Positions 4,099-53,005 of a DNA stretch of 59,302 nt are shown one piece after another. The number at the start of each line of letters is the position of its first letter. Position 1 is the stretch's first letter. A model generated the notes under the pieces. It worked only from the letters and a program-made list of their open reading frames with translations. It was not told where the DNA came from and ran no database searches. A program made the position numbers and the translations under genes. Source of the stretch: a virus (taxonomy: Duplodnaviria > Caudoviricetes); the IMG/VR virus record IMGVR_UViG_3300046167_000227, positions 1-59,302 of that record. One strand, given 5' to 3'.

Positions 4099-4319
4099 TG
4101 TTTGAAGCATTTGTACTTGTATGCATGATTGGTAACTCCAATATATGTCATACACTAAAAGATTTGGAAGGTCCATACGAAACTAAACAGGAATGTATAG
4201 TACGTACCTATGAAATGGCTGCTGACCTACCAGACTACATGCCTATGTTCCAAGCATTGAAGTATAAGTGCTTTGAAGATAAAGAATCAGATAAAGTGAG
4301 AATAAATTATGGCACATGA
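4098..4319 (+). CDS. Small Cys-containing protein with hydrophobic N-terminus
   Basis: MFEAFVLVC...C...GPY..KQEC...C; coupled to neighbours. Confidence 0.6.
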   Translation: MFEAFVLVCMIGNSNICHTLKDLEGPYETKQECIVRTYEMAADLPDYMPMFQALKYKCFEDKESDKVRINYGT

Positions 4320-4602
4320 AAACAGACGAGCAGCGTTGCTCAAGAAACATGGACTCAAGGGTGTGAACAAGCCTAAGAGAACCCCTGACCATAAAACTAA
4401 ATCACATATGGTGTTAGCTGCCGAAGGGCATAACATGAAACTAATTCGCTTTGGGCAACAAGGTGTCAGTGGAGCAGGTAAGAATCCCACTAGTGCTAAA
4501 GATAAAGCACGTAAGAAGAGTTATTATGCAAGGCACAATGCTCAAGGCAAACCCACCACTAAGTTATCAGCTAAATACTGGTCACATAAGGTGAAGTGGT
4601 AA
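4309..4602 (+). CDS. Basic hypothetical phage protein
   Basis: RFGQQG...ARKKSYYARH...YWS motif typical of marine phage hypotheticals. Confidence 0.7.
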   Translation: MAHENRRAALLKKHGLKGVNKPKRTPDHKTKSHMVLAAEGHNMKLIRFGQQGVSGAGKNPTSAKDKARKKSYYARHNAQGKPTTKLSAKYWSHKVKW

Positions 4603-4617
4603 CAGGAGAATAGATAA

Positions 4618-5106
4618 ATGAGTGCGAAGAAGATAGCAGACTTTATATTTGAGAATACTGGTAAAGGTGTAAATTATGCCATGAGAAAATTAGGCATAGC
4701 TAAAAGTGAGATAGACGGATTAACACCTAACCAACTTAAATTATATCTTGCAGAAAAGGCAAAGGGTTCTTACAAAGGTAGAACAAAAGCTAGAGATTCG
4801 GATACAGGAAAATTAGTAGTAGGTGGTGGTACATTAGCTACCCTAGCTTCTATATGGAATGAAATTGACCCAACTAAAGTAAAAAGGATGGGAGATGGAA
4901 CATTACGTGCTGAAAATTTAAAGAAGAAAAAGAAGATGGTTAAGAAAAAGGTAGTAAAGAAAACTCCACCTAAAGCTCCACCACCTAAACCTGATTCAGT
5001 TAAGAAGAAAAAGAAACAGCTTATGATGAAAGAGAAGTATACAGGTAAGGACTCAAATGTAAAGTTTAACTCTAGGGGTGGTATGCTCAAGAAGGGGAAG
5101 AAGTAA
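4618..5106 (+). CDS. Lysine-rich protein
   Basis: AGGAG RBS; K/P-rich; ends FNSRGGMLKKGKK. Confidence 0.75.
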   Translation: MSAKKIADFIFENTGKGVNYAMRKLGIAKSEIDGLTPNQLKLYLAEKAKGSYKGRTKARDSDTGKLVVGGGTLATLASIWNEIDPTKVKRMGDGTLRAENLKKKKKMVKKKVVKKTPPKAPPPKPDSVKKKKKQLMMKEKYTGKDSNVKFNSRGGMLKKGKK

Positions 5107-5432
5107 TGGCTGAGAATCCACTAGCAAGAATAAAAGCTAAATTAATAGCTAAATATGGTAAAGACAAAGGTATGGATGTATACAGGTCTGCAAGTAAAGA
5201 TATAAGCAATCAGATTGCAGGTGGTGGTGGAGAGATTGAAGGGTCTTCTCTAACACAACTAATGGACCCAGCAGACCAAGTAGAGTTTTATGAATATAAG
5301 TCTGACTTAGCAAAAGGTAAAAACATAGATACGTCAGCTACCAAGAACAGAAAAGGTGCTAACGACTACCGTAAGGGTGGCTACGTGCTCAACACGACTG
5401 ACAATAGAAAGGTCAAGAGAAATGGCAAATAA
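5106..5432 (+). CDS. Hypothetical protein with YRKGG motif
   Basis: TAATG-coupled ORF. Confidence 0.75.
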   Translation: MAENPLARIKAKLIAKYGKDKGMDVYRSASKDISNQIAGGGGEIEGSSLTQLMDPADQVEFYEYKSDLAKGKNIDTSATKNRKGANDYRKGGYVLNTTDNRKVKRNGK

Positions 5433-5643
5433 AAAAGGTAAGGGTGGCATAGCCATAATCATTTCTATGTTAGGTAAGAAACCTAAAGGTAAAATGAAAA
5501 AAGCTGAAATGTCATATGGTGGCAGTGTAGGTGGTAAGAAGCATATGTACTCAGGTGGTGGTTCAGTCACAGATAATGCAGGTTTACTTGCTCTCAAGAA
5601 GGCTAGTCCTGAAGCCTACATGAACATAAAGAAAAATGCCTAG
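5422..5643 (+). CDS. Small basic protein with MSYGG / YSGGG motifs
   Basis: ATG at 5422 (MANKKGK) within ORF 5356..5643. Confidence 0.7.
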   Translation: MANKKGKGGIAIIISMLGKKPKGKMKKAEMSYGGSVGGKKHMYSGGGSVTDNAGLLALKKASPEAYMNIKKNA

Positions 5644-5896
5644 TAGAAATTATAAAAAAGAATATGCTAACTACCACTCTAAACCTGCACAGAAGGTGAA
5701 CAGAGCAGGTAGAAACAAAGCACGTAAGATAGTTATGAAAGCAGGTGGAACTGCGAAGGTAGCAGGTAAAGATGTCCACCATAAGAATGGCAATCCAAAG
5801 GATAACAGAACTAGTAATTTAGCTGTAGCATCTAAAACTGCCAATCGTTCTTTCAAGAGAACACGTACTGCTAAAAAACTTACTAGGAGAATATAA
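5636..5896 (+). CDS. HNH endonuclease-like protein
   Basis: DVHHKNGNPKDNRTSNL motif. Confidence 0.7.
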   Translation: MPSRNYKKEYANYHSKPAQKVNRAGRNKARKIVMKAGGTAKVAGKDVHHKNGNPKDNRTSNLAVASKTANRSFKRTRTAKKLTRRI

Positions 5897-6555
5897 TGGC
5901 AAAAGAGTACACAGTCAAGATTTTTGGGAAAACAAGAGACTACAAAAAAGTAGGTAATAAGTATTTTCAAATTATGAAAGATGGAAAATTAAATAAAAAT
6001 TCTGCAAGTGGAGCTTGGAGATTGCAACTAGAAAATGCTGCAAACTCTAGATTAGTTACTACCCCTAAAAAGGTGGCTACTTCAATGTTAGCTAGTGTAA
6101 GGTCTGCTGTGTCTAGTTCAAAGAAAAACAAAAGAGGTCAGGCACAAGCATCTACACCTAAAGATGATGGTGGTAGGGCTGCCTATTTGCGAAGTGAAAT
6201 TATAGACAAACTAAAAAAAGATAAGGCACTAGCTACTATAAAAAAAGATACTAGTAACACAAAAACAGATAGAAAAATATCTATGGGTAATAAAAAAACG
6301 GACAAGAAAATAGAGAAAAAGGTAGAAAAGAAAAAAGATATTAAACCTTTACAAAAAACACAGAGTAAGGCAATAAAATCTACTACAACAAAAGCTCTAC
6401 AGAATAAACCTAAACAAAATGTTAAAAAGAAAGTAGAGAAGAAGATTACAAAGAAGCCTGAATCTAAATTGGATTCAAAAGGTAACTATAAAGGCACAAA
6501 CATAAAGCCTACAAAGTTACAATTAGACAGACTAAAGAAAAGAGGACTAGCATAA
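5896..6555 (+). CDS. Lysine-rich protein
   Basis: 219-aa coupled ORF, very K-rich C-terminal half. Confidence 0.75.
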   Translation: MAKEYTVKIFGKTRDYKKVGNKYFQIMKDGKLNKNSASGAWRLQLENAANSRLVTTPKKVATSMLASVRSAVSSSKKNKRGQAQASTPKDDGGRAAYLRSEIIDKLKKDKALATIKKDTSNTKTDRKISMGNKKTDKKIEKKVEKKKDIKPLQKTQSKAIKSTTTKALQNKPKQNVKKKVEKKITKKPESKLDSKGNYKGTNIKPTKLQLDRLKKRGLA

Positions 6556-6686
6556 TGGTTATGAAGAAGAAAACAAAGTACATGGCTAAAGGTGGAATGA
6601 AGAAGACTAAATACATGGCTAAAGGTGGTGCAGGTATGAAGAAGACTAAGATGTACTCTCGTGGTGGAGCAGCTAAAAAGAAGTAA
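6555..6686 (+). CDS. 43-aa tandem-repeat basic peptide (not in ORF track)
   Basis: MVMKKKTKYMAKGGMKKTKYMAKGGAGMKKTKMYSRGGAAKKK; TAATG-coupled at both ends, AGGA RBS. Confidence 0.8.
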   Translation: MVMKKKTKYMAKGGMKKTKYMAKGGAGMKKTKMYSRGGAAKKK

Positions 6687-7390
6687 TGTCATATCTTATA
6701 AGTAACGTACCACATTTTAAATGTTGGGTACGTAAGGAGTTCACTTGTAATCATATGAATTATCACGGTGAATACCTACACGCACTAGCTTTCGCAGTTA
6801 ATACCATACCTGATAGGTCACTAAGTTTTCAGGTAGTCTTCACAGGTTGTACAGAAGATGACAATGTACACGGTGGTGCAATGTGGGCAAGGATGCCCAT
6901 ACAGGCACTCGTAGCTGACATACCTGTAGACGAATGGGCAGAGCCAATGGAAGACCACTTATGTCAACCTTGGGATTGTGAATCAAGAAACCATAGTGTT
7001 ATAGTTATGGACAGAGTCAGTTCTAGTCCGTGGTTATGTAAGATAGGCAATGAGTTCTACACAGCTAAGTATATGTTTACTGTTGACTACACAGACAGTG
7101 ACATAGCAGATGACCCTGCACAGCATAAGCAGTCACACGTGATGTACTTGTTGGATGCAGGAAAATGGACAGGCAATATAGTTGCACTGCCAAATAACAG
7201 AGTAAGAGCTACAAGTCCTGCTCTGTGGGTTACAGGAGAAGGTGCTCCAGACTTTGCACCATCACAGTGGACACACTCAGCAGAGTCACACGAATCTTAC
7301 CTAGACCCATTTACTACATTTAACAATTTATATGAGGATAGAGATGGCACTAGCAAAGGCAAAAAGAACAATAAAAAAAGTAGCAAGTAA
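6686..7390 (+). CDS. Conserved hypothetical phage protein
   Basis: 234-aa globular ORF with QPWDC, HKQSH and LPNNR motifs. Confidence 0.75.
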   Translation: MSYLISNVPHFKCWVRKEFTCNHMNYHGEYLHALAFAVNTIPDRSLSFQVVFTGCTEDDNVHGGAMWARMPIQALVADIPVDEWAEPMEDHLCQPWDCESRNHSVIVMDRVSSSPWLCKIGNEFYTAKYMFTVDYTDSDIADDPAQHKQSHVMYLLDAGKWTGNIVALPNNRVRATSPALWVTGEGAPDFAPSQWTHSAESHESYLDPFTTFNNLYEDRDGTSKGKKNNKKSSK

Positions 7391-7631
7391 GTTAAAGAAA
7401 GCTAGTAAAGCACATGCAGGTCAAGCTAAAACATTATCAGCACTTAAATTAAAAAGTGGAGGAAGCACAGTCAATGCTGCAGGGAATTACACCAAACCTA
7501 CACTACGTAAGAACATATTCAACCGTATCAAAGCAGGTGGTAAGGGAGGTGCTCCCGGTCAATGGTCAGCCAGAAAAGCACAGATGGTTGCCAAGGCATA
7601 CAAAGCCAAGGGTGGTGGATATAGAGGATAA
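7344..7631 (+). CDS. Basic protein with DUF5872-like N-terminal half
   Basis: YTKPTLR...GGKGGAPGQWSARKAQ...GGGY; GAGGA RBS before ATG 7344. Confidence 0.65.
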   Translation: MALAKAKRTIKKVASKLKKASKAHAGQAKTLSALKLKSGGSTVNAAGNYTKPTLRKNIFNRIKAGGKGGAPGQWSARKAQMVAKAYKAKGGGYRG

Positions 7632-7948
7632 TGACAGCAAAGAAGAAAAAGAAAAAGGCAGACCCTAAAGTTGGCACAGGTAAAAAACCGAAAGGTAGTG
7701 ACAGACGATTATACACGGATGAAAACCCTAAAGACACAGTTAGCATCAAGTTTGCCACGGTCACGGATGCCAAAGACACCATTGCAAAAGTTAAAAGAAT
7801 CAATAAACCATATGCGAGAAAGATACAAATACTTACTGTCCTTGAACAACGAGCCAAAGTATCTGGGAAGAGGGAGCAAGCAGCTCTCGCAAAAAGAGCA
7901 AAAGAACAATTAAAAAGGAAACACGAGAATGACAAAAGAAAAGTGTGA
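7631..7948 (+). CDS. Basic hypothetical protein
   Basis: Coupled ORF; RRLYTDENPKDT motif. Confidence 0.7.
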   Translation: MTAKKKKKKADPKVGTGKKPKGSDRRLYTDENPKDTVSIKFATVTDAKDTIAKVKRINKPYARKIQILTVLEQRAKVSGKREQAALAKRAKEQLKRKHENDKRKV

Positions 7949-8033
7949 TACTTGTGAGTGTTACGAATGTGACTATGAAGAATGTAATTGCGAATGTCAC
8001 GAAGATAAGGTAGCAGAAAAAGGTAATGATTGA
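7929..8033 (+). CDS. 34-aa Cys-rich metallothionein-like peptide (not in ORF track)
   Basis: MTKEKCDTCECYECDYEECNCECHEDKVAEKGND; fills the gap between flanking genes, AAGGA upstream. Confidence 0.55.
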   Translation: MTKEKCDTCECYECDYEECNCECHEDKVAEKGND

Positions 8034-8208
8034 GTTTGTGTTAGTGTTTATGATGGGATTAAGAGTAGTAGACCAAACACAAACCTTTGAAGATATAGAT
8101 AGATGCTTGTACTTTGCAGAGAGATTACACAAGCAACCTTCAGTACCACAGATGGAAGGAGCAAATCTACAGATAACAGCATACTGTAAACCTAGAAGGA
8201 AAAGATAA
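8026..8208 (+). CDS. Small hypothetical protein with hydrophobic N-terminus
   Basis: 60-aa coupled ORF with two Cys. Confidence 0.6.
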   Translation: MIEFVLVFMMGLRVVDQTQTFEDIDRCLYFAERLHKQPSVPQMEGANLQITAYCKPRRKR

Positions 8209-8651
8209 TGTTAGCAGAACTCGCAGCAGCCAATGCAGCCTTCGGTGTAATCAAGAGTTTTATATCTAATGGTAAGGAACTTTCAGGTTGTGCTAAACAA
8301 ATATCAGATTTTGTATTTTCTAAAGAAGCCATAGAGAAAAATCTTAAAAAGAAAAAAGCTAAAGGTATAGGTGGTGGAGACTTAGAAGAGTTCATGGCTC
8401 TTGAGCAGATAAGAGAAAAAGAAGAAGAACTCAAGAAGATGATGATATATCTAGGCAGACCCGGATTGTGGCAGGATTGGCAACAGTTCCAAGCAGAAGC
8501 AAGAAAGTCTAGACGTTATCAAGAAAAGATGGCAGAGAAGCGTAGAGAAGAGATAATGGAATACGTAGGCTATAGTATAGGGTTTATTGTCATTGTATTC
8601 TTTGCAGGACTAGCAGCTTGGTTTGTAGCTAAGTGGACAGGTAGATTATAA
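8208..8651 (+). CDS. Coiled-coil protein with C-terminal TM helix
   Basis: Hydrophobic C-terminal segment; lies near lysis genes. Confidence 0.7.
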   Translation: MLAELAAANAAFGVIKSFISNGKELSGCAKQISDFVFSKEAIEKNLKKKKAKGIGGGDLEEFMALEQIREKEEELKKMMIYLGRPGLWQDWQQFQAEARKSRRYQEKMAEKRREEIMEYVGYSIGFIVIVFFAGLAAWFVAKWTGRL

Positions 8652-8732
8652 CCCCATGTATAGGCATCTGCACGTTGCAAGAGAATGTCTGCATAGGATG
8701 CAATAGAACAATAGAAGAGATTAAGGAAGCGT

Positions 8733-8978
8733 ATGAGAGCACCACAAAAGTCACTAGCAAATTGGACAAAGCAAAAGTGGAGAACCAAGAGTGGTAAACC
8801 TAGTACACAGGGGTCAAAAGCTACAGGCGAACGTTATCTACCTGAAGCGGCGATTAAGGCTCTTAGTTCCAGTGAATACGCCGCCACTTCGGCTGCTAAA
8901 CGCAAAGCAACTAGAGGAAATAGACAAGTATCTAAACAACCCAAAAAGATTGCTAGAAAAACGGCGAGATTTAGATGA
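8733..8978 (+). CDS. Basic protein with DUF5872-like C-terminal half
   Basis: QKSLANWTKQKWRT...ERYLP...LSSSEYAAT. Confidence 0.65.
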   Translation: MRAPQKSLANWTKQKWRTKSGKPSTQGSKATGERYLPEAAIKALSSSEYAATSAAKRKATRGNRQVSKQPKKIARKTARFR

Positions 8979-10660: not shown

Positions 10661-11054
10661 AAGTGTAGGTAAGTGGAAGTTACCACAACCAACAGACTTA
10701 AAAGATGAAGAACAAAAAGAATGGGTACAGATACCTCGCATAGCTAGGACTATTCCATTTGGATACAAGATAAATGAACAAGACCCTGACTTACTTGACC
10801 CAATACCATACGAGTTAGAAGCCATAGAGATGGCAAGAAAGTATGTAAAGCAGTATTCCTATCGTGAAGTAGCTAATTGGATGACTACTAAAACGAATAG
10901 AGTTATATCTCACGTGGGTTTAAGAAAAAGGTTAATGCATGAAAGACAACGTAAGAACACGGCTAGAACTCTCAGAAAGTGGTCTGAGTACGCCGAAAAG
11001 GCGATACAAAAAGCGAAAGCCATTGAAGAAGCAAGAACAGGTGCAAGAGCCTAA
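10653..11054 (+). CDS. Putative DNA-binding protein
   Basis: IPFGY...SYREVANW...ISHVGL resembles a recombinase-type DNA-binding domain. Confidence 0.55.
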   Translation: MDRSVGKWKLPQPTDLKDEEQKEWVQIPRIARTIPFGYKINEQDPDLLDPIPYELEAIEMARKYVKQYSYREVANWMTTKTNRVISHVGLRKRLMHERQRKNTARTLRKWSEYAEKAIQKAKAIEEARTGARA

Positions 11055-12493
11055 GATACGAGAAGTATCAGACGTAGAAGCAGTACCTGTAGAAGAACAG
11101 AATGTTATCTTCAAACCTAATGTAGGACCTCAGACAGAGTTCCTTGCAGCAGGTGAAAGAGAAGTATTATATGGTGGTTCAGCAGGAGGTGGTAAATCAT
11201 ACGCCATGCTTGCCGACCCTTTACGTTACATGGGTCATCCATCATTTAGTGGGTTGCTACTGCGACACACAACAGAAGAACTTAGAGAACTAATATTTAA
11301 ATCTAAGGAAATGTATCCTCAAATATGGAAGGGTATTAAGTGGTCAGAAAGAAAGATGCAATGGGAAGCACCATCAGGTGCAAGGTTATGGATGTCATAC
11401 CTAGACAGAGACGATGATGTACTTCGTTATCAAGGTTTGGCATTTAGTTGGATAGGGTTTGATGAATTAACTCAGTGGTCTACTCCGTATGCTTGGAACT
11501 ATATGCGTTCACGTTTGCGTTCTACTGCACATGATTTACCTGTGTATATGAGAGCAACAACTAACCCCGGAGGTCCGGGACATCATTGGGTCAAGAAAAT
11601 GTTCATTGACCCTGCACCATACGGAAAACAATTTGATGCCACAGATATTGAATCAGGGAATGTTCTTTCCTATCCAAAAGGACACAGTAAAGCAGGACAA
11701 GCATTATTCAAACGTAGATTTATCCCTGCAAGATTATCGGACAACCCATACTTGTCTGCCCAAGGTGACTATGAAGCAATGCTTCTATCCTTACCTGAAC
11801 ACCAACGTAAGCAGTTGCTTGAAGGTGATTGGGATATTAAAGAAGGTGCTGCTTTTACTGAGTTTGATAGGAATATTCACGTTGTTGAGCCTTTTTCAAT
11901 TCCAAGAAATTGGGTTAAATTTCGTGCATGTGATTATGGTTATGGCTCTTATAGTGGTGTGTTGTGGTTTGCTGTTTCTCCAGACGAGCAGATTATTATA
12001 TATAGAGAGTTGTATTGTAGCAAAGTACTTGCCACAGATTTGGCAGATATGATATTGGATGCTGAAGCCGATGATGGAAATATTAAGTATGGGGTTCTGG
12101 ACAGTTCTCTTTGGCATAAACGTGGGGATACTGGTCCTTCTTTGGCTGAACAGATGATTATGAAGGGATGCCGATTTAGACCTTCAGATAGAAGTAAAGG
12201 CAGTCGTGTATCAGGGAAAGAATGAAATACATAGACGTTTACAAGTAGACGAGTTTACAGAAGAACCAAGATTAGTTTTCTTTAACACTTGTACTAATAT
12301 GGTATCACAATTACCTGCATTACCGTTAGATAAGAAGAATCCAGAAGATGTAGACACAAGAGCAGAAGACCACTTGTATGATGCATTAAGATATGGTATA
12401 ATGTCAAGACCTAGGTTTAGTATATTTGACTACGACCCAATGGGTAGACCTAGTAACAGTATGCCAATGGCAGACTCTACATTTGGATATTAA
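11041..12493 (+). CDS. terL: Terminase large subunit (one indel near 12220)
   Basis: Walker A GGSAGGGKS, Walker B FDEL, TNPGG, nuclease DYGY and DHLYDALRY across ORFs 10939..12225 and 12206..12493; start uncertain. Confidence 0.92.
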
Positions 12494-12502
12494 GGATATA
12501 AC

Positions 12503-14661
12503 ATGGCAGAAAAAGATGAAGTAACACTAGACGATGATTCCATAGCATTAGAGGATGTAGAGGAAACAGCAGTCGGTGATATAAATGTGAGTGGGATTAT
12601 ACCATTTATTATGGATAGATACCAACGAGCCGAAGACTATCGTAGCAATGATGAAGAACGGTGGTTAAGGTCTTATAGAAATTATAGGGGGTTATACGGA
12701 AGTGATGTTCAATTTACTGAAGCAGAAAAGTCAAGAGTATTTATTAAAGTTACCAAAACAAAAACTCTCGCAGCTTATGGACAGATTGTCGATGTGCTAT
12801 TTGCAGGGAACAAGTTTCCTATTAGCGTTGAGCCGACAGTGTTACCTGAAGGTGTCGCAAGCTGACGTTAGCTTTGACCCAAAGAAGCCTGAACAGCTTA
12901 AGGAGAAACTGAGATGTCTTCGCCTTATGGGTTTAAGGGTGATGGCATGGATTTACCGAAGGGTGCTACTGAAAAAACATTGGCAGAAAGGCTGGGTCCT
13001 TTACAAGACAAGCTGGGAGAAATTGAAGGCTTGGAAGAAGGGGTAGGTAAAACACCTACTGCTGTTACATTTAGTCCTGCTATGGTAGCTGCTAAGTCTA
13101 TGGAAAAACAAATCATGGACCAACTACAAGAGTCAGGTGCAAGTAAGCAATTAAGAAGTACAGCATTTGAGATGGCATTATTCGGAACAGGAGTAATGAA
13201 AGGTCCTTTTGCTGTAGATAAAGAATATCCTAATTGGGATGAGGAAGGTAACTATAGTCCTGTCTTTAAGACTGTACCATCTACATCACACGTATCAGTA
13301 TGGAACTTCTTTCCTGACCCTGATGCTGCCAACATGGATGAAGCACAGTTTGTGATTGAAAGACACAAGATGTCAAGAACACAGCTACGTGGATTAAAGA
13401 AGAGACCTTACTTTCGTGCAAACGTAATTGACGAAGTAGTTGCATCAGGTGAGTCTTATGATAAAAAGTATTGGGAAGATGATTTATCTGACTATGCAGC
13501 AGACCACGGAATAGATAGATTTGAAGTACTAGAATATTGGGGAATGTGTGACGTTGATATGCTTGAGGAAAATGGTGTAGACATACCTAAAGACCTCAAG
13601 GAGTTTGATGAATTACAAGCGAACATATGGATTAGTAATGGTAAGTTAATAAGAATGGTTCTTAATCCTTTCAAACCTGCCACTATACCTTACATGGCAG
13701 CTCCATACGAGTTGAATCCATATTCTTTCTTTGGTGTAGGGTCTAGCTGAAAACATGGATGACACACAGACACTTATGAATGGCTTTATGAGAATGTCTG
13801 TAGACAACGCTGTGTTATCAGGTAACTTACTTATAGAGGTAGATGAAACTAACCTAGTTCCGGGTCAGGACTTATCTGTGTATCCGGGCAAAGTTTTTAG
13901 AAGACAAGGTGGTGCTCCGGGTCAAGCTATCTTCGGTACTAAGTTTCCTAACGTATCAAATGAGAACTTACAACTGTTTGACTAAGGCTAGACAACTTGC
14001 AGACGAGAGCACAGGCTTTCCGTCATTCGCACACGGACAGACAGGTGTACAAGGTGTAGGTAGAACTGCATCAGGTATATCAATGCTTATGAACGCAGCG
14101 GCAGGTAGTATTAAGACTGTTATAAAGAACGTAGACGATTATTTACTCAAGCCATTAGGCGAAGGTATGTTCCGTTTTAATATGCAGTTTAACTTTGACA
14201 AAGAAATCAAAGGTGACTTAGAAGTTGTTGCACGTGGAACAGAAAGTCTTATGGCTAACGAAGTACGTAGTCAGAGATTAATGTCCTTCTTACAAGTGGC
14301 ATCTAATCCTGCACTAGCTCCGTTTGCTAAGTTTCCATATATTATTAGAGAGATAGCTAAGTCTATGGAACTAGACCCTGAAAAGGTAACTAATAATATG
14401 GATGAAGCAGCAGTACAAGCCGAGATACTAAAAGGTATGCAAGGTGCTATGCCACAAGAACAACAACAACCACCACAGGCAGGTCAACCACCTGTAGGTG
14501 CTAACCCACTAGACCCCACAGGAGCAGGTGGTGGTAATGTAGGTACAGGACAAGCACCTGTGCCGGGCGAACAAGGATTTTCAGGAAATGATGGACAAGC
14601 AGGTGCTGCAGCAAATCAAGCCGCTAGTGAACAACCTCAAACTAATGAACAGCTTCAATGA
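12503..14661 (+). CDS. Portal protein (several indels)
   Basis: Fragments 12503, 12914, 13755 and 13909 join into a P22/N4-like portal (FGTGVMK, WNFFPDP, RTASGISML); follows terL. Confidence 0.88.
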
Positions 14662-14803
14662 TTACATTGATGAATTAATAAAGCAACAACATAAGATACT
14701 AGAACAGTCTAACGACATGATAACTCTACATAGGTCTCAAGGAGCTATAGCAACTTTAAGTAAACTCAAACTATTAAGGGATGAAGTAAATGGCATTAAA
14801 TAA
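14591..14803 (+). CDS. Small protein following portal
   Basis: LHRSQG motif of small post-portal genes. Confidence 0.65.
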   Translation: MDKQVLQQIKPLVNNLKLMNSFNDYIDELIKQQHKILEQSNDMITLHRSQGAIATLSKLKLLRDEVNGIK

Positions 14804-16472
14804 ACAAATGGAAATGTTTGAAGATGGTGGTCTCAAAGATGAAGGTGGCATGATTGACGAAGTATCAGGCAATGATGTTCCTCCGGGTTCTACAAGAGAA
14901 GAAGTTAGAGATGACATACCTGCACAGTTAAGTGAAGGAGAGTTTGTATTTCCTGCTGACGTAGTGAGATTCATAGGTCTTGAGAAGTTAATGCAGTTAC
15001 GACAAGAAGCTAAACAAGGACTGAAGCAAATGGAAGCTATGGGTCAGATGGGTAATTCAGATGAAGCTACTATGCCTGATGATTTACCTTTTGATGAAAC
15101 AGACCTTGACATGGAAGACGAATTAGAGTATAATAGAGGTGGAGTAGTTGAAGCAGCTAACGGTACTTATGTAGCACCTACTATTCCAACAGGTAGCCAA
15201 CCACTAGGAACAAATCCAATGGGCAATCCTATGGGAGTACCACAACAAGTAGCAGATGGAGTATCAGGCAGTACGCAGGGAACACCTTATGTACCTAATG
15301 TAGGTAAAATGTATGGAGTAGGAGCAACACCATACGCACCTGTAAGTTATAATCAGTTATTAGGACCTAGTGCAACAGGAGCACCTACGACAGAAACCGT
15401 TAGATACTTTAATGCAGCAACAGGTCAGACACGTATGATACCACATCTAGTAAACGCAGATGGCACAAGAGGTGCAACATTATATCCTGTGCCTGAAGGT
15501 TTTGTTATACAAGAAGAAGCACCTAAAGAGGAAGCTAAGAAGACAACTCAAGTACAATCAACTAAAGTAGCACCTGTAGAATCAGGAGATGGTGGCGATG
15601 GTGGTGCAGGTGGTGGTGCAGTAGACCTTGCAGGAGACCCTTTAAGTTATAGCAGTGTGTTTAGCATGGATGCTTTAGATAAACAAATGGCTAAAATAGG
15701 TGCAATGCAACTTAGTACCCTTGGTAAAGCAGGAGTATTTCAAGGAATTAGTAGTGCCGCAACAGGAAATCCTGAACGAAATCAAATGAAATTAGGTGCT
15801 CTTACACCTCTTTTCACATCTCTTAAAACTCAACTAGGAATTAAAGGTCAGGATTTAGGAAAATTAAAAGGTAAAACACCTGAAGAAATTGCAAAAATTA
15901 GAGGAGTAGTTGCTGCTGATATTGAAAGAGTAACTGCTGCTGTAGACAGATTAACTACTAATATAACATTTTCTAAAGATAAAAACGGAAATACAATTAG
16001 CACAGAATCTAATAAAAGCACAAAAGATACTATAGCTGACGTTAACGCTATGGCAAAACAGTATGGGTTAAAAGAAATTGATACAAAAACTAATGTTAAT
16101 CTCGGTTCTAAAATAGGTCAAAAGATAGCTGAAATAAATCAAGCTATTAAAGAGCAACCTACCTATAGTGAAGACCCAAGCGACACCATAGAAAGCAGAG
16201 ACCCAACAGCAGGTGATGTTTATAGTGATGAAACTCAAACAACGACTGCTGCAGAACAAGCAGCAAATAGAGCTGCTGCAGAGGCTTTTGCGAAGAGTGG
16301 AAGTGATTCTGATAACAACGAATCAAGTAGTGGTTCTGGCTCATCCGTAGATGGTGGTGACTATGGAGTCGGTTCTGAAGCAGGTATGGACTTTAAACAA
16401 GGTGGACTAGCAGGTAAAAAGAAAACACCTAAACCTAAGAAGATGAAGCGAGGTGGATTAGCTTCACGTTAA
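14790..16472 (+). CDS. Head-morphogenesis/internal protein with gpH-C-like GEFV domain and multiple xxxGG motifs
   Basis: FEDGG...DDIPAQLSEGEFVFPADVVRFIGLEKL...YNRGG; ends MKRGGLASR. Confidence 0.6.
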   Translation: MALNKQMEMFEDGGLKDEGGMIDEVSGNDVPPGSTREEVRDDIPAQLSEGEFVFPADVVRFIGLEKLMQLRQEAKQGLKQMEAMGQMGNSDEATMPDDLPFDETDLDMEDELEYNRGGVVEAANGTYVAPTIPTGSQPLGTNPMGNPMGVPQQVADGVSGSTQGTPYVPNVGKMYGVGATPYAPVSYNQLLGPSATGAPTTETVRYFNAATGQTRMIPHLVNADGTRGATLYPVPEGFVIQEEAPKEEAKKTTQVQSTKVAPVESGDGGDGGAGGGAVDLAGDPLSYSSVFSMDALDKQMAKIGAMQLSTLGKAGVFQGISSAATGNPERNQMKLGALTPLFTSLKTQLGIKGQDLGKLKGKTPEEIAKIRGVVAADIERVTAAVDRLTTNITFSKDKNGNTISTESNKSTKDTIADVNAMAKQYGLKEIDTKTNVNLGSKIGQKIAEINQAIKEQPTYSEDPSDTIESRDPTAGDVYSDETQTTTAAEQAANRAAAEAFAKSGSDSDNNESSSGSGSSVDGGDYGVGSEAGMDFKQGGLAGKKKTPKPKKMKRGGLASR

Positions 16473-17687: not shown

Positions 17688-18746
17688 ATGGCATTTACAG
17701 CAGCAGCTGGTTATGGTAATCTTCCTAACGGTAATTTTAGTCCTATTATTTACAGCAAACAGGTGCAACTTGCGTTCCGTAAGTCATCTATCGTTGATGC
17801 AATCACTAATAATGATTACTTCGGTGAGATTGCTAATATGGGCGATTCCGTTAAGGTTATCAAAGAACCAGAAATAACAGTCAAGGCATATTCTAGAGGA
17901 ACTACAATAACTCCTCAAGACCTTGATGACGAAGAATTTTCACTTAATATTGACAAAGCTAATTACTTTGCATTTAAAGTGGATGATATTGAGGAAGCTC
18001 ATTCACACGTTAACTTTCAACAGTTAGCATCTGATAGAGCAGCCTATAGACTAGCCGACCAATTTGACCAAGATGTACTTGGTTATATGTCAGGTTACAA
18101 GCAATCATCTATACATGGTGCTCCAGACACAGCTAATACAACTACTAATGGTAGTGTAGCTGTTTCAACAGCTGGTTCTGACGAACTCTTATCTTCAATG
18201 AAAATTGATGCTGAAGACTTCGGTGGTTCTGCTGGAGATGCTGTGGCTATCTTACCAAGAACAGGTGGAGCTACTACTGCTGCTCCTGCTAATGGAGATA
18301 GAAACCCATTGACAGTGATTGCTAGAATGTCAAGACTACTAGACCAACAGAATGTTGATACTAACGGAAGATGGTTAGTGTTAGACCCTGTATTTATTGA
18401 AGTACTAAAGGATGAGGACACAAGATTGTTTGATGCAGACTTTGGTGGTTCAGGACTACAGAATGGTTTAGTTCTTAATAATCTACACGGATTTAAGGTG
18501 TATCAGTCAAATAACCTTCCAAGTTTAGGAACAGGACCATCTAATACAGGTGCGAACAGTTCTACAAACTTTGGTATTATTGTTGCTGGTCACTCTTCAT
18601 CAATAGCTACTGCTGAGCAAATCAACAAGACAGAGACTTATAGAGACCCTGATTCTTTTGCTGATATTGTTCGTGGTATGCATTTATATGGTAGAAAGAT
18701 TCTTCGCCCTGAAGCAATCTGTACTGCCGCTTACCACTTAGCATAG
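17688..18746 (+). CDS. Major capsid protein
   Basis: FSPIIYS, GEIANMGDSVK, RWLVLDP, DIVRGMHLYGRKILRPE; strong RBS; position after scaffold. Confidence 0.92.
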   Translation: MAFTAAAGYGNLPNGNFSPIIYSKQVQLAFRKSSIVDAITNNDYFGEIANMGDSVKVIKEPEITVKAYSRGTTITPQDLDDEEFSLNIDKANYFAFKVDDIEEAHSHVNFQQLASDRAAYRLADQFDQDVLGYMSGYKQSSIHGAPDTANTTTNGSVAVSTAGSDELLSSMKIDAEDFGGSAGDAVAILPRTGGATTAAPANGDRNPLTVIARMSRLLDQQNVDTNGRWLVLDPVFIEVLKDEDTRLFDADFGGSGLQNGLVLNNLHGFKVYQSNNLPSLGTGPSNTGANSSTNFGIIVAGHSSSIATAEQINKTETYRDPDSFADIVRGMHLYGRKILRPEAICTAAYHLA

Positions 18747-33023: not shown

Positions 33024-33024
33024 T

Positions 33025-33249
33025 ATGTTTAATCCAGCATTTAGTATTTCACAGGAAGTTGATGCTTTTATAAAGCAAAGAAAGAATATAAAAAAACCTG
33101 TTGCTAAAAATAGTGGGTTGTTAAAAAGAAACTCTATGGGTATTGATACGCAAGACAGTGGTGCAAAACAACCTATAGAAACTATAGCAGACATAGTAGA
33201 ATCACTCAGAGCAGAGCAACAAAACATTAAGGAATTAAAAGATGCCTAA
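33025..33249 (+). CDS. Hypothetical protein
   Basis: AGGAGG RBS; 74 aa. Confidence 0.65.
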   Translation: MFNPAFSISQEVDAFIKQRKNIKKPVAKNSGLLKRNSMGIDTQDSGAKQPIETIADIVESLRAEQQNIKELKDA

Positions 33250-33751
33250 TAGAAATGAACCATTGATAGATGCTCCTATTCCGGGAATGTCAATGACACA
33301 CGAGTTAGGTGCTAGACCGTGGCAACAACCTGCAAAGTACACAACGGTTGAGGATGCTTCTAAGTATTATATTACTAGGATGCAAGATAAACAGTTTACA
33401 GAGACATTAGTAAATGTTTTAGAAATGGGTGTTCCTATAACAACATTAGCTAATACAATACAGCTATCTAGTGTTATGCAAGGTTTGCATAGCATAGATG
33501 TAGGAATGTTGGTATTACCTGTTATTATGGAGACCATAAAATTAGTTGCAGATAGTGCTGATATAGAGTATAATACAGGATTAGATGCCGATGATTCTGT
33601 CAAAATAGGTAGTAATACAAGTGATATTGACGTTACGATAGGTAAACTAAGTGATTTAGTTGACGATGATGAAGATGAATTACCTATGGATACGCAAGAA
33701 ACTGCTACAGAAGAGGAAGAACCTCAAATGGGATTAATGGCTAGGAGATAA
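33242..33751 (+). CDS. Hypothetical virion-module protein
   Basis: PIPGMSMT..G.RPW..P; ends GLMARR. Confidence 0.7.
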   Translation: MPNRNEPLIDAPIPGMSMTHELGARPWQQPAKYTTVEDASKYYITRMQDKQFTETLVNVLEMGVPITTLANTIQLSSVMQGLHSIDVGMLVLPVIMETIKLVADSADIEYNTGLDADDSVKIGSNTSDIDVTIGKLSDLVDDDEDELPMDTQETATEEEEPQMGLMARR

Positions 33752-33753
33752 GA

Positions 33754-37900: not shown

Positions 37901-38402
37901 TCGTTTAAATATGCAAAACTTTCAAATATATAAAAGACATCCTAACGAAAAAGTAGATAGATTAACACGTTTTTATCTAAGTGAAGAAGGAAGTGATACT
38001 AATTTAAATGAGGTTATGGCTAGGGTAATAAGAAAAGACCAATATAAACAAATGTCTTATAAAGAAAAAAGAGAAGCTATTTATGTTGATTCAATGAAAA
38101 TTATAGGTAGAGCTAGAAAAAAAGCACTAGGAGAAATAAAAACTGTGGAGGGTTCAAAGGCAGGTGCTAAGTACACTACTATTGACTCTCAAAAGTGGCA
38201 ATCTCTAAATCAAAGAACCAAAGAAGCCGTCAATGAATTATTAAAAAGAGAATTACCTAAATATTCTTTTAATGATTTTACTAGTGTTAACGCAGATAAA
38301 GATAGAATGGTTAGAATAAGAGACAAAGAAATAAGTATATTAAATTTAGCAATAAAAGCAATACCTAAAGTAAGGAAAGGAATTATAAGTGGAACTAGAT
38401 AA
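34923..38402 (+). CDS. Large internal virion protein
   Basis: 1159 aa, helical, IPFPKF motif; podovirus gp16-like position. Confidence 0.65.
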   Translation: MYKDYNFYDSNDMNKEVLTKDLSFLEDAATLLEERAGFNDDELDTPEKIYETYMEHFRISDVNEVTAVKDLRHVMTGTTEQKARYGRLLDLYERSEGESFFEDVDTGVRKLGDYAQGLATAPSTIASVFTGGFSKIAAQGGVQASKLGIKKILKEVMKAGAKGAAIEGGIGLGQGVVKESTRVASGIKGEKGFEIERPLTETALAATGGFLLTGIARAATLPSELKTLKLEERASSAIKLREAKAKAKTDEVLKSADKDTISKIDENLVEVTKPKKGDIDVDKAPLDPKKVAEGIQLKKDKSTSETMTSTLSEEVRNNITAAVLRVGKDVVNQKPGERITAAIYRAIVRGDVPIDNITKVLDEHNITLDQFSLIYKADVSEAGRLLGQKGLISRTFGGKASKKDKQAVKDLLDQVDGLDKAGVSKVSAKETAETLKENPLLLGWRLFQDIDQARISFMTVQPKTAGRNTANGGFRVMTDAMTRAMDNVIYNTGQLRYGLKGNYRINPFDGTYDVAKFMFNPYEGDLIKKVFSESFPNESRRLFFKNADIEARAGGDGILTTIGRKLNFLNTASDNIFKRAVLGASLKRSIKDANIPISADAKKTIIQQRVAQILGPDYRTSPDYTKTVTAVTKQVNKQKNHTIFTAYESGEFSKIATDDMFTKATKDAYDFAYQTQFKEYGKLGSDAARGLITAVRKIPFLLSSAIPFPKFVASQLKFIYQHAPVIGMIPLEKIPNPLSPIKAKKVRYDFKDRLSKTLTGGVLTSVAYAWRARQGDTNHWYEYKNNEGKLVDGRPLYGPFSMFMLYADLIYRYKRDQLPTKSWGRYAKDVLQAVAGSTFRTGLGLYTLDKLLTDLSNTEGEGSEVKDRIVGEVVGNLVKTVTIPIAPFRDLYAQFDIKSSYVPESRTGETNLFDIIDARGTSNLIDFGEDTPFIGKEGFASIPSLASKLNLEYDKPARSAFQTGPIIAQDPLVSQITTETTRPAKNAYQQELGRLNMQNFQIYKRHPNEKVDRLTRFYLSEEGSDTNLNEVMARVIRKDQYKQMSYKEKREAIYVDSMKIIGRARKKALGEIKTVEGSKAGAKYTTIDSQKWQSLNQRTKEAVNELLKRELPKYSFNDFTSVNADKDRMVRIRDKEISILNLAIKAIPKVRKGIISGTR

Positions 38403-39591
38403 CGAAACTTTAAAACAAATTTCTGAAATAGATGACAGAATAGACAATCAGACATCTCCTAAATATAAAAGTGTAGGTGAGGCGTTAGAAGGTATAGGAA
38501 CAACGGTAGCAGGTATGGCTTCAGGTGCTGTTAGTGCTACATTAGGACTACCAACAGATGTTGTTGCTGCAGGAGTAGGTATAAAAGATGCTATATTTGC
38601 AGATGACGGTGAAAGAATGGATGCTTTTAGTAAGGGATTTACTGAAGTGTCTAAAGAAAACATGGGTTCAGAATACTATAAAGAAAACTTTAGTACCTTA
38701 CTAGATTCTTTAATTGATAATCCTGTGTTAAAGGAAGATGCTAAATCAGGTTTTAGTGCAGGTGAGTTTGCTGGTGTTGGTGGAGTTGTTGCTAAAGCAC
38801 CTAAGATAGCTAAAAATGTTATTGCACAAAAAGAAACAGCAAGAGAAATATTATCATCTATAGGACTATCCTCTAAAGCTATGAAAAATATAAATGTTGA
38901 TAATATGAGTATTGATGGTGCAGTAAATTTAGCTAAAAAGTTAAAGGTAGCTAGAGCTAAACTGTATGGTACAGATGAACAAGGTAATGTAGGTAATGCT
39001 GTAATGGCTATGACTGCTAAACGTGAACCATCTCCTGTGAAACAAATGACTGAAGCAGACCAAATGATTTCTGTGTTCCCAAAACCTGAAAGAATGTTTC
39101 CTAAAGGTGAAGCACCTAAAGGTGGTGACTATTTAAATCCTAAGACAGGAGATATATTAACCGATAGAAACGTATCTTCTGCAAACATAAAGATTAACCC
39201 AAATGGTAAACCTTCATTTAATGTTTCAAATGATAACGTGGATAATGTTGGAACTTTAGGTAAAGGGAACTCTCAAATAAAGACTAATTTATTTAAAAAG
39301 AAAGCAGGTTGGAAGTGGACAGATACTCCATCAGGAATGGATAATGTGGAAACATTAGTATCTGTCACACATAAAGGTAAACATTTTTACACAATAGAAA
39401 CTGATTTTACCAAAGGTGTTAATCTGAAGAAATATCCTAATCAGAAAACAGAACCAAAACTAAGACCAACTGTTGTGGGTCAGATAGAATTGGGAGAACC
39501 TATTGGTGAAATATCAGTAAGAGGTAATCCACATAAAGTGTATAATAAAATTAAAACATTCAATAGAGGTGGATTAATGGCACGTACTTAA
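38389..39591 (+). CDS. Putative injected protein with unknown C-terminal domain
   Basis: Last plus-strand gene; ends FNRGGLMART. Confidence 0.55.
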   Translation: MELDNETLKQISEIDDRIDNQTSPKYKSVGEALEGIGTTVAGMASGAVSATLGLPTDVVAAGVGIKDAIFADDGERMDAFSKGFTEVSKENMGSEYYKENFSTLLDSLIDNPVLKEDAKSGFSAGEFAGVGGVVAKAPKIAKNVIAQKETAREILSSIGLSSKAMKNINVDNMSIDGAVNLAKKLKVARAKLYGTDEQGNVGNAVMAMTAKREPSPVKQMTEADQMISVFPKPERMFPKGEAPKGGDYLNPKTGDILTDRNVSSANIKINPNGKPSFNVSNDNVDNVGTLGKGNSQIKTNLFKKKAGWKWTDTPSGMDNVETLVSVTHKGKHFYTIETDFTKGVNLKKYPNQKTEPKLRPTVVGQIELGEPIGEISVRGNPHKVYNKIKTFNRGGLMART

Positions 39592-42864: not shown

Positions 42865-43196
42865 TTTTTGTTATCATTGTCTGATTCAAAAGACAGTACC
42901 ACAACATTGTCCTTTTTGTCAACAACTTTCAGCTTAGGTTGAGGTTTTTCTTCATTGTATTCTGCTTCTTTTATTAGTCTTTGTCTTAGGTCTTCATCTC
43001 GTTCCATAAGAGGTACACTTGCACACATAGTTCTACAAAAATCTAGTACACCATAATAATCAGCATCATCTAATGGATTCTCAGGAGATGTCATTATAGA
43101 TATGTTTACTCCACCTGTCCACTTATCATGCTTATCAATCTCAGGTCTTACATCTATTATAAAATCTTCATTGAATACTTTACTTAGTATACTCAC
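42858..43196 (-). CDS. Hypothetical protein
   Basis: 112-aa coupled ORF. Confidence 0.65.
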   Translation of the reverse strand: MSILSKVFNEDFIIDVRPEIDKHDKWTGGVNISIMTSPENPLDDADYYGVLDFCRTMCASVPLMERDEDLRQRLIKEAEYNEEKPQPKLKVVDKKDNVVVLSFESDNDNKKC

Positions 43197-53004: not shown

Positions 53005-53005
53005 T

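What the first reader, a model, noticed from the sequence alone, without database searches (positions are those of the whole stretch)
14790..15150. Lambda gpH-C-like GEFV domain in the prohead-protease slot: candidate reader or protease for the GG tag
Seen: between portal and scaffold, where head maturation proteases usually lie, this gene begins FEDGG...DDIPAQLSEGEFVFPADVVRFIGLEKLMQL...YNRGGVV. From memory, the proteolytically processed C-terminal region of lambda tape measure gpH reads FATGG...HRGEFVFTKEATSRIGVGNLYRL..YATGGYV, the same layout. A podovirus needs no tape measure, and I see no recognisable S21/S49/S78 head protease here. Inference: the GEFV domain binds or cleaves xxxGG strands, in cis in tape measures and in trans on tagged proteins here. 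That would be a new maturation-protease or adaptor family.
Basis: partly seen in the sequence, partly recalled or inferred. Interest (0 to 1): 0.82.

Follow-up and report, generated by a model that had tools for sequence, protein, structure and literature searches.

The report
Tape-measure module in podovirus cargo protein
The gene after the portal of this marine short-tailed phage keeps one short conserved piece that also sits near the end of tape measure proteins of long-tailed phages. It looks like the fixed handle of a variable injected cargo protein, and nothing tested here shows it to be a protease.

Summary
ORF 14790-16472 (560 aa) starts as quoted, and the recalled lambda gpH motifs are real. 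Direct likeness to lambda is weak (BLASTP E 0.012; hhalign 11%). The link to tape measure proteins (TMPs) is nonetheless solid. Of 60 listed tblastn hits of the 68-aa core, 37 lie in TMP genes. hhalign of the core family against seven such TMP modules gives 97.6%, E 3.6e-12. Those modules match lambda-type TMP ends at 96.4%. A pelagiphage protein in the same gene position bridges both groups.

The protease or tag-reader reading is not supported. There is no peptidase family and no compact fold (pLDDT 64). The protein is mostly predicted disordered.

The gene is the HMO-2011-type polyvalent/ejection protein. It has a constant TMP-type module, a hypervariable body and a conserved basic MKRGGLAS end. 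Relatives carry swappable N-terminal modules (methyltransferase-like, LPD23, SprT-like).

Hydrophobic-x-x-GG motifs mark module ends. The window's separate gene 38389-39591 ends in one, and it is fused directly upstream of the core in at least 31 of 80 related loci.

Best reading: a gpHC-like handle or junction of an ejected cargo protein. Self-processing remains an open rival.

The parts
14790..16472 (+). Target ORF, 560 aa: constant TMP-type module, then a hypervariable and mostly disordered body, then a basic GG-type C-end. It is the HMO-2011 gp49 / CRP-1 gp49 orthologue.
   Evidence: 5813 relatives at E<=1e-3; 3414 clusters at 50% identity; AF2 of the full length gives pLDDT 52
14817..14831 (+). 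Hydrophobic-x-x-GG motif 1 (F10-G14), 38 residues before SEGEFV
   Evidence: present at this offset in 80 of 80 IMG/VR loci; F10, G13 and G14 invariant in A6
14856..15056 (+). Conserved core, residues 23-89. The TMP-type module proper is residues 40-89 (14907-15056).
   Evidence: invariant columns in A2; hhalign against TMP modules 97.6%, E 3.6e-12; a TMP-only profile hits only 14907-15056 in the whole genome, E 3.7e-13; 78-80% identity to HMO-2011 and CRP-1, as high as the head protein and portal
15057..15128 (+). Acidic linker after the module
15129..15143 (+). Hydrophobic-x-x-GG motif 2 (Y114-G118)
   Evidence: offsets +66 to +72 recur; G117 and G118 invariant in A6
15387..15509 (+). Small predicted beta mini-domain (residues 200-240), conserved within the close subfamily
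   Evidence: AF2 strands 200-240, pLDDT 73-80; consensus in A6
15672..16154 (+). Helical, variable region (residues 295-455)
16392..16469 (+). Basic tail with two GG motifs (F535-G539, M552-G556), ending MKRGGLASR
   Evidence: 51 of 72 complete relatives have the motif in the last 12 residues; G555 G556 L557 A558 invariant in A6
12503..14661 (+). Portal gene (SU10-type), broken into four frames in this record
   Evidence: 1-base indels relative to the intact 717-aa portal of L007
16542..17426 (+). Scaffold-like gene (phrog_13678), followed by the major head protein at 17688-18746
38389..39591 (+). Free-standing 400-aa gene ending in FNRGG plus 5 residues. Its C-terminal domain (about residues 225-395) is a movable module of the polyvalent gene in relatives.
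   Evidence: of 80 related loci, 31 by pattern (plus 2 seen by eye) run straight from this domain through a GG junction into the GEFV core

Best explanation
The ORF encodes the podoviral counterpart of the C-terminal fragment of siphophage tape measure proteins (lambda gpHC). It also serves as the constant chassis of this phage group's polyvalent, injected cargo protein.

Shown:
1. The only strongly conserved part is a linear module of about 50 residues (D-x-I-P-A-x-L-S-x-G/D-E-F/Y-V, then a helix). It is homologous to a module found near the C-end of TMPs or between TMP segments.
2. The module is flanked by hydrophobic-x-x-GG motifs, and the protein ends in one. Lambda gpH has the same order.
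3. The rest is hypervariable and mostly predicted disordered.
4. Relatives attach different modules N-terminal to the core, always through GG junctions. One such module is a separate GG-ended gene in this phage.

Inferred: the module is a non-enzymatic handle or junction. It would place or oligomerise an extended, ejectable protein in or next to the DNA exit channel (portal side here, tail tip in siphophages). The GG strands would be docking or hinge strands and possible cutting points for another activity. At infection the protein would leave with or ahead of the DNA and carry the variable modules into the host.
For: Homology:
- tblastn of the 68-aa core at E<=10 found 84 records. Of the 60 listed, 14 are HMO-type, 37 lie in TMP genes of Burkholderia, Gordonia, Vibrio, Corynebacterium, Mycobacterium, Nitrincola and DSL-LC04 phages, and 9 lie in other phage proteins.
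- hhalign A2 vs A5 gives 97.6%, E 3.6e-12. A5 vs lambda-type A3 gives 96.4%, E 1.2e-9.
- The A5 profile finds the Douge TMP (two copies), the JBD30 TMP and lambda gpH 715-795 in the PDB.
- A5 finds only the target in this genome.
- HTVC103P gp79 sits in the order portal, gp79, gp78, capsid. It matches a TMP at E 3e-17 and the target at E 3e-9.

Cargo reading:
- 47 of 120 close relatives carry 17-457 extra residues before the module.
- These extensions include methyltransferase-like, L5_gp82, LPD23 ('large polyvalent protein') and SprT-like domains.
- The polyvalent-protein concept is in PMC5512222 (passages read).

Handle rather than enzyme:
- No compact fold is predicted, and no peptidase family matches.
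- The core is as conserved (78-80%) as the head protein (78%) and the portal (75-76%) across phages of SAR116 and Roseobacter hosts. The rest of the protein is 27-31% identical.

Docking precedent: lambda gpH 818-849, which holds M842-x-x-G845-G846-L847 uncut, is seen bound to the gpI trimer (PMC12617516, passages read).
Against: - No direct evidence shows that the protein is in virions or is ejected.
- The window's own copy has no recognised effector domain.
- The module is not resolved in the virion maps of lambda, JBD30 or Douge (passages read). It is therefore not a rigid, symmetric anchor there.
- A short polar motif kept almost unchanged from actinophage TMPs to marine podophages is odd for a docking peptide, because its partners diverge fast. 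Such conservation fits a partner-independent chemistry better.
- The A5 sequences were picked because they resembled the query, so the E-value is inflated.
- The direct lambda comparison stays weak.
Confidence: 0.45

Rival explanations
1. Self-processing junction. Once the protein is assembled or oligomerised, the module cuts the chain at the hydrophobic-x-x-GG site just upstream. In siphophages this would separate gpH* from gpHC. Here it would release upstream cargo modules.
For: - In lambda the module (745-790) lies directly C-terminal to the region where gpH is cut. The cut gives a gpH* of about 78 kDa, and both the site and the catalyst are unknown (PMC12617516, passages read).
- Residues 1-728 compute to 79.1 kDa, and FATGG is at 733-737.
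- In fused relatives the order is always cargo, GG junction, module.
- The Douge TMP has two modules flanking an internal segment.
- The Glu is invariant in A2, A5 and A3.
- No other protease family was found in 46 ORFs scanned, and there is no HExxH in structural ORFs.
- The strong cross-lineage conservation fits a chemistry more than a docking site.
Against: - There is no nucleophile at a GG-X bond.
- Only one polar residue is universal. The Asp of D-x-IPA is absent from lambda-type ends, and the Gly of GEFV varies.
- The monomer model has no fold.
- T5 pb2 is cut after Arg1127 and has no detectable module.
- Lambda's last GG motif is uncut in the virion.
- Lambda gpK is annotated as a C40 peptidase and could do the job. 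Its JAB domain is my recollection, not a call.
Confidence: 0.25
2. Trans-acting reader or protease for GG-tagged proteins. The module would bind or cut the GG ends of other virion proteins of this phage.
For: Several other ORFs carry such motifs near an end. These are 38389-39591, 31047-33023, 5106-5432, 5636-5896 and the 6492-6683 frame. The tagged domain of 38389-39591 is in relatives fused next to the core, so tag and module are functionally linked.
Against: - No fold and no peptidase signature.
- The full-length model shows no confident ordered contact of the tail with the module. Both are below pLDDT 60.
- Relatives of the CRP-738 type keep the core but end differently, in ..KKQKIAFMV.
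- The fusion pattern is equally explained by module shuffling with GG linkers.
Confidence: 0.1
3. Post-ejection role in the host envelope. The module would nucleate the oligomer or channel, or contact a universal envelope component, after the protein leaves the virion.
For: - In HTVC027P gp82 and a Rhizobium phage protein the module follows a glycine-zipper-like hydrophobic stretch, as in lambda gpH 691-730.
- gpH* forms the periplasmic channel (PMC12617516, passages read).
- JBD30 authors predict a 'hook' at 1022-1066, which is the module, and speculate that it holds the TMP in the baseplate after expulsion (PMC11445458, passages read).
Against: - In the window protein no such hydrophobic stretch precedes the module.
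- Hosts range from Actinobacteria to SAR11, so a common host ligand is hard to name.
- There is no test of this here.
Confidence: 0.12

Closest known systems
C-terminal region of siphophage tape measure proteins (lambda gpH / gpHC; NCBIfam TIGR01541; TMPs of JBD30, Douge, Burkholderia and Gordonia phages)
   Same: - The same roughly 50-residue module, supported by profile-profile and pairwise statistics.
- The same flanking hydrophobic-x-x-GG motifs and a GG-type extreme C-end.
- A predicted extended or disordered character.
   Different: - It is not in a tail gene and has no ruler region.
- It does not match TIGR01541 or PF09718.
- The gene lies between portal and scaffold of a podovirus with an SU10-type portal and adaptor.
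- The module sits at the N-end, 440 residues from the C-end tag instead of about 60-90.
- HMO-type cores add their own invariant S-G-N-x-V-P-x-G-S and V-R-D-D stretch.
Phage polyvalent proteins (Iyer, Burroughs, Anand, de Souza, Aravind 2017, PMC5512222) and MuF/SPP1 gp7-type head proteins with variable effector domains
   Same: - The gene lies next to the portal.
- There is one constant part plus swappable domains. LPD23, methyltransferase-like, SprT-like and L5_gp82 domains occur in relatives.
- The module sits anywhere from residue 2 to 1014 in 150 listed representatives.
   Different: - No MuF domain is present.
- The variable modules sit N-terminal to the constant part.
- The constant part is a TMP-type linear module.
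- The window's own copy is a minimal form without recognised effector domains.
Prohead maturation proteases encoded between portal and head protein (HK97 S78, T4 gp21 S77, lambda gpC S49 types)
   Same: Gene position only.
   Different: No family match, no compact fold and no catalytic Ser/His signature.
GG-directed processing of virus core proteins (adenovirus protease, ASFV pS273R) and ubiquitin-type precursors. This comparison is recalled, not from a call.
   Same: Modules end in GG whether they are fused to a downstream part or followed by a short variable tail. That is the pattern of precursors cut after GG.
   Different: No clan CE, JAB or C39 peptidase was found in the 46 ORFs scanned. 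Cleavage itself is not shown. Lambda's terminal GG motif is uncut in the virion.

Membership tests
Lambda-type tape measure C-terminal region (TIGR01541 / PF09718) | Match to the family model | tested here: not met
   The target has 0 Pfam families at E<=1 and 0 NCBIfam families at E<=0.1. In the same call gpH scores 1.1e-134 and the Burkholderia TMP 8e-38.
Lambda-type tape measure C-terminal region (TIGR01541 / PF09718) | Presence of the GE-F/V-V module with flanking GG motifs | tested here: met
   The direct comparison to lambda-type ends reaches only 11.4%.
Lambda-type tape measure C-terminal region (TIGR01541 / PF09718) | Gene in the tail module of a long-tailed phage, with a long ruler region | tested here: not met
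   The gene lies between portal and scaffold/head genes. The phage has an SU10-type portal and adaptor and no TMP_2/TMP_3 match.
Phage polyvalent proteins (PMC5512222) | Several unrelated effector or LPD domains in one polypeptide, in varying combinations | tested here: inconclusive
   Met in relatives: PF13489/PF08241, PF25735, PF18838 (LPD23), PF10263/PF20573. The window's own 560-aa copy has no recognised domain.
Phage polyvalent proteins (PMC5512222) | Encoded beside the portal/terminase head genes | tested here: met
   The script picked an upstream ORF in 62 of the IMG/VR loci, and in most of the rows printed it is a portal of about 700-721 aa ending about 110-160 bases before the gene.
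Phage polyvalent proteins (PMC5512222) | Packaged in the capsid and delivered into the host | not testable with these tools
   No proteome of an HMO-2011-type virion was found in the papers read. Supplements are closed.
MuF / SPP1 gp7 head protein | Phage_Mu_F domain | tested here: not met
   No Pfam family at E<=1.
Prohead maturation protease | Peptidase family match and a compact catalytic fold | tested here: not met
   The AF2 model of residues 1-125 has pLDDT 64 and pTM 0.29, with an extended stretch plus one helix. Foldseek against the PDB has a best E of 4.3.
Prohead maturation protease | Gene between portal and scaffold/head protein | tested here: met

The most novel reading that the evidence does not exclude
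The roughly 50-residue GE-F-V module would be an assembly-triggered self-cutting element that cleaves at the adjacent hydrophobic-x-x-GG site. It would be the unknown catalyst of the lambda gpH to gpH* + gpHC cleavage. In abundant marine podophages it would be the release switch that frees GG-ended cargo modules inside the capsid, and possibly in trans for the free-standing GG-tagged proteins. That would make it a new minimal protease family shared by long-tailed and short-tailed phages.
Probability: 0.15. Interest if true: 0.9.

Novelty: new variant of a known kind. Interest (0 to 1): 0.63.

Why it matters
HMO-2011-type phages are among the most abundant marine phages. This gene family alone gave 5813 clusters at 90% identity and 3414 at 50% identity, and it is annotated 'hypothetical' everywhere I looked.

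- The work links its only conserved part to an undescribed but widespread module of tape measure proteins. That module has no Pfam model of its own.
- It shows that the gene is a chassis for swappable, probably injected, modules joined by GG junctions.
- It points to a concrete, testable candidate region for a 40-year-old open point, namely where and how lambda gpH is cut.
- It gives annotators a handle for ejection or cargo proteins in podophages that have no recognisable internal virion proteins.

Tried and rejected
- Portal binding: complex prediction with the portal (A4, 22 rows, from relatives because the window's portal is frameshifted) plus core (A2) returned 'no answer' (score 0.00, mark 0.32). 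It counts neither for nor against binding.
- Foldseek of the 1-125 model against the PDB gave nothing (best E 4.3).
- ESM Atlas: the nearest named cluster was 'crassvirus cargo protein 1' at 0.83, which is chance level. I used it only as a lead, and it is not confirmed by Pfam.
- Family HMMs A1 and A2 against the PDB and the lambda genome gave no gpH hit at E<=10.
- Two attempts to get diverse gpH C-ends returned only near-identical lambda-like sequences. I used 6 picks from a spread tblastn list instead.
- The search of protein representatives listed only HMO-type proteins among its best 150, so it could not show TMP links.
- Relatives of the small basic ORF 4618-5106 in IMG/VR: none found.
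- First passes at the C-ends of relatives of 38389-39591 chose the wrong ORF or counted open frames. These were redone.
- T5 pb2 as a model for the module was rejected, because the profile finds no match and the cut is after Arg1127.
- Literature string search for SDSIPA, GEFVF and DSIPAM gave 3 unrelated papers.
Full report
**What the window is.** The 59,302-base window is a complete IMG/VR virus record of an HMO-2011-type marine podovirus. The target protein finds only Puniceispirillum phage HMO-2011, Roseobacter CRP phages and one uncultured podovirus in the phage collection. That is 14 records, none covering 80% of the query. The head genes run TerL, portal (SU10-type), a 71-aa ORF, the target ORF 14790-16472, a scaffold-like gene (phrog_13678), then the major head protein. 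Next come an SU10-type adaptor and nozzle-like genes. HMO-2011 and CRP-1 have the same order, and the orthologues there are 'hypothetical protein'.

**The observation.** Lambda gpH, fetched from NC_001416, holds the recalled strings. FATGG is at 733-737, the GEFVF stretch is at 752-774 and is followed by YATGGYV, and the protein ends MRDGGLFSGGGR. Pfam's Tape_meas_lam_C covers gpH 627-701, not this stretch. NCBIfam TIGR01541 covers 472-813.

**Direct comparison with lambda is weak.**
- BLASTP gives E 0.012 over 24 residues.
- hhalign of a 39-sequence family alignment (A2) against gpH gives probability 2%.
- hhalign against seven lambda-type TMP ends (A3: lambda plus six picks from a spread list of 1047 matching phage records) gives 11.4%, E 0.0027.
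- Family HMMs find nothing in the lambda genome or in the PDB, which holds gpH as 8iyk_H.

**The link to tape measure proteins is nevertheless real.** A tblastn of the 68-residue core (window 14856-15059) at E<=10 hit 84 phage records. Of the 60 listed:
- 14 are HMO-type.
- 37 fall inside tape measure genes of Burkholderia, Gordonia, Vibrio, Corynebacterium, Mycobacterium and Nitrincola phages and phage DSL-LC04. Of these, 35 are annotated as TMP, and 2 are the same gene under another label.
- 4 are Pelagibacter podophages, 4 are Rhizobium phages and 1 is another phage. A further 24 records were not listed.

The TMP stretches share hydrophobic-x-x-GG, then G-P-G-T-x-T-S-D-S-I-P-A-x-L-S-x-G-E-F-V, a short helix-like part and a second x-F-A-x-G-G-x-V. 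Seven of them, chosen for diversity, form alignment A5.
- hhalign of A2 against A5 gives 97.6%, E 3.6e-12 over 37 columns.
- A5 against lambda-type A3 gives 96.4%, E 1.2e-9 over 69 columns.
- The A5 profile finds three TMPs in the PDB: Douge gp16 with two copies at 954-1028 and 1412-1473 (E 5e-26), JBD30 gp46 at 1010-1092 (E 7.6e-14) and lambda gpH 715-795 (E 0.0045). Apart from these there was one weak non-TMP row (glutamine synthetase 7v4i, E 0.33) and nothing else up to E 1.
- In the window's genome A5 finds one place only, 14907-15056, at E 3.7e-13.

A5 was selected by likeness to the query, which inflates. Three results do not depend on that choice. The first is the concentration of sub-threshold hits in one gene class. 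The second is the A5-lambda link. The third is a bridge protein, pelagiphage HTVC103P gp79, which lies in the order portal, gp79, gp78, capsid. Its C-end matches the DSL-LC04 TMP at E 3e-17 and the window protein at E 3e-9.

**What is and is not conserved.** In A2 (the window, 22 representatives of 80 IMG/VR loci, and 16 loci of a CRP-738-like subgroup), 20 columns are invariant: D23 G27 N28 P31 G33 V39 R40 D41 D42 S48 E51 P55 A56 V58 V59 G63 A74 G77 M81 G85. The Gly of 'GEFV' is replaced by Asp in many relatives. Lambda-type ends lack the D-x-I-P-A part. The single polar residue kept in all three alignments is the Glu. Between the window and HMO-2011 or CRP-1 the core is 78-80% identical, level with the head protein (78%) and the portal (75-76%). 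The rest of the protein is 27-31% identical over aligned columns.

**Fold.** AlphaFold2 on residues 1-125 with A2 gives pLDDT 64 and pTM 0.29. The model is an extended stretch from 20 to 55 and a helix from 56 to 83, with no compact domain. The full length with 83 sequences gives pLDDT 52. It shows a small beta unit at 200-240, helices at 295-455 and disordered ends. Foldseek finds nothing. No Pfam, PHROG or NCBIfam family matches.

**What the gene is.** The family is very large. There are 5813 proteins at E<=1e-3 among 90% clusters of 308-980 aa and 3414 clusters at 50% identity. Of the 120 closest relatives, 73 start with the module and 47 carry 17-457 residues before it. In the 150 listed representatives the module starts anywhere from residue 2 to 1014. 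The extensions hold several kinds of domain:
- methyltransferase-like domains (P0052, P0090)
- Phage_L5_gp82 (P0011, L056)
- LPD23, a 'large polyvalent protein associated domain' (L056, L061, L046)
- a SprT-like/DUF6782 metallopeptidase-like stretch (L045)

This is the architecture of phage polyvalent proteins. Iyer et al. proposed that these are packaged in the head and delivered with the DNA, usually on a MuF or portal chassis (PMC5512222, passages read). No MuF domain is present here. The constant part is the TMP-type module. The window's own copy is the minimal form.

**The GG motifs.** In 72 complete relatives from IMG/VR, hydrophobic-x-x-GG occurs 324 times against 86 expected from residue shuffles. 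It sits at fixed offsets around the module: -38 in 80 of 80 loci, -52/-53 in 33, and +66 to +72. It lies in the last 12 residues in 51 of 72. Of 58 proteins with an N-terminal extension, 43 have an extra motif at the junction. The usual C-end is a lysine-rich run followed by MKRGGLAS-R/K. CRP-738-like relatives end differently.

The most telling result concerns the window's separate gene 38389-39591, which ends in FNRGG plus five residues. Eighty related loci were examined.
- In 31 loci by pattern, plus 2 more seen by eye, the same domain runs through F-N-E/K-G-G and about ten residues straight into the core. L267 is part of the same contig as the 1531-aa polyvalent protein of L061.
- 20 loci are free-standing, 4 of them with the motif in the last 16 residues. 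At least 2 more (L304, L305, read) hold M-K-A/T-G-G about 17-21 residues from the end. Eight further loci share their C-terminal 16 residues, so they probably do too, though I did not read that far in them.
- 27 loci continue into other sequence.

GG motifs therefore mark the ends of movable modules, whether those modules are fused or free.

**How this bears on mechanism.**

*Docking or handle reading.* Lambda gpH 818-849 is visible bound to the gpI trimer in the tail tip. It includes M842-x-x-G845-G846-L847 and is not cut there (PMC12617516, passages read). The window protein has the same order of parts as gpHC, with the module first and a GG-type end last. Also for this reading, the core is conserved at the level of virion proteins across phages of unrelated hosts.

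*Self-processing reading.* The same paper states that gpH is cut in the glycine-rich region into gpH* (about 78 kDa) and gpHC (about 690-853), and that both the site and the catalyst are unknown. The module begins just after that region. Residues 1-728 weigh 79.1 kDa. In fused relatives the order is always cargo, GG, module. Douge has two modules around an internal segment. The motif is kept almost unchanged from actinophage TMPs to marine podophages, which suits a chemistry better than a co-evolving contact.

*Against an enzyme.* There is no fold, only one universal polar residue and no nucleophile at GG-X. T5 pb2 is cut after Arg1127 without a detectable module.

*Against a rigid anchor.* The module is unresolved in the lambda, JBD30 and Douge virion maps (passages read). 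JBD30's authors predict a 'hook' of two helices and a beta-hairpin at 1022-1066, which is the module. They only speculate on anchoring and on a cut at 1066.

**Protease census.** Forty-six ORFs of the window were scanned against Pfam. No peptidase family reached its cut-off. Peptidase_S28 scored E 0.61 and Reprolysin_4 scored E 0.02, both below cut-off. No HExxH occurs in any structural ORF. About eight minus-strand ORFs of 100 aa or more were not scanned.

**Verdict.**
- Homology to a TMP module is well supported.
- The claim of a new protease or tag reader is not supported, and its cis form is not excluded.
- I rate a non-enzymatic handle or junction of a gpHC-like, polyvalent ejected protein at 0.45.
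- I rate self-processing at 0.25, a post-ejection envelope role at 0.12 and a trans reader or protease at 0.10.

I found no description of the module in print. The HMO-2011-type papers I searched do not discuss the gene, and a string search for the motif found nothing relevant.

Noticed in passing
window 10939-12493 and 12503-14661: TerL and the portal are each broken by single-base indels relative to the 94-95% identical relative L007, where they are intact (517 and 717 aa). The extra bases are at 12217, 12861, 13739 and 13982, and one base is missing near 12901. These are likely assembly or sequencing errors in this record, so other small ORFs may be mis-framed too.
   Followed up: partly
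window 4309-8978 (+): A run of small, very lysine-rich ORFs, several with K/R-G-G motifs near an end. 4618-5106 ends FNSRGGMLKKGKK. 5106-5432 holds YRKGGYV. 5636-5896 holds VMKAGGT. 5896-6555 ends KKRGLA. They look like DNA-associated or internal proteins. No relatives of 4618-5106 were found in IMG/VR.
   Followed up: partly
window 6492-6683 (+ frame overlapping the end of 5896-6555): A frame without its own start codon holds three tandem Y/M-x-x-K/R-GG repeats at its end. It overlaps the 3' end of the 219-aa basic ORF. It may be that protein's true C-end after a frameshift, real or an error.
   Followed up: no
window 31047-33023 (+): A 658-aa ORF with no family match carries two adjacent GG motifs near its N-end (EMAKGGVV, KLQTGGA). 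It sits in a block of unmatched large ORFs (31047-39591) that are probably internal or ejection proteins.
   Followed up: no
L106, L122, L130 and CRP-3 (L004), regions around and after the core: The CRP-738-like subgroup has a Cys-rich stretch (C-G-C..C..C) just before the core. Some members have a C-x-x-C..C-x-x-C insert after it, which suggests metal binding. Their C-end is ..KKQKIAFMV instead of the GG tail.
   Followed up: no
PDB 8zdo_S (mycobacteriophage Douge gp16), residues 954-1028 and 1412-1473: This tape measure protein carries two copies of the module about 380 residues apart. Corynebacterium phage P1201's TMP has the module just before a stretch with a C-S-G motif that looks like an NlpC/P60-type site.
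   Followed up: no
L262 3664-4683 (HTVC027P gp82) and L261 1607-2695 (Rhizobium phage RHph_TM3_14A): Small podophage or temperate-phage proteins consist of a glycine-zipper-like hydrophobic stretch, GG motifs and the module at the very C-end. This is a miniature of the lambda gpH 691-790 layout outside any tape measure gene.
   Followed up: partly
window 50312-50893 (-): A 193-aa ORF matches only the first 64 positions of the Phage_integrase model. It may be a truncated or frameshifted integrase. Nearby on the minus strand are a C-5 cytosine DNA methylase (53451-54473), endonuclease I (43193-43651), MazG (39588-39977) and a cell wall hydrolase (52573-53031).
   Followed up: no
window 15387-15509 (target residues 200-240): A second, weakly conserved beta mini-domain (..R-M-I-P-H..D-G..Y-P-V-P-E-G-F-V) resembles the 95-residue N-terminal extension of some relatives (..I-P-T-V-I-D-G..). 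It may be a repeated small unit.
   Followed up: no
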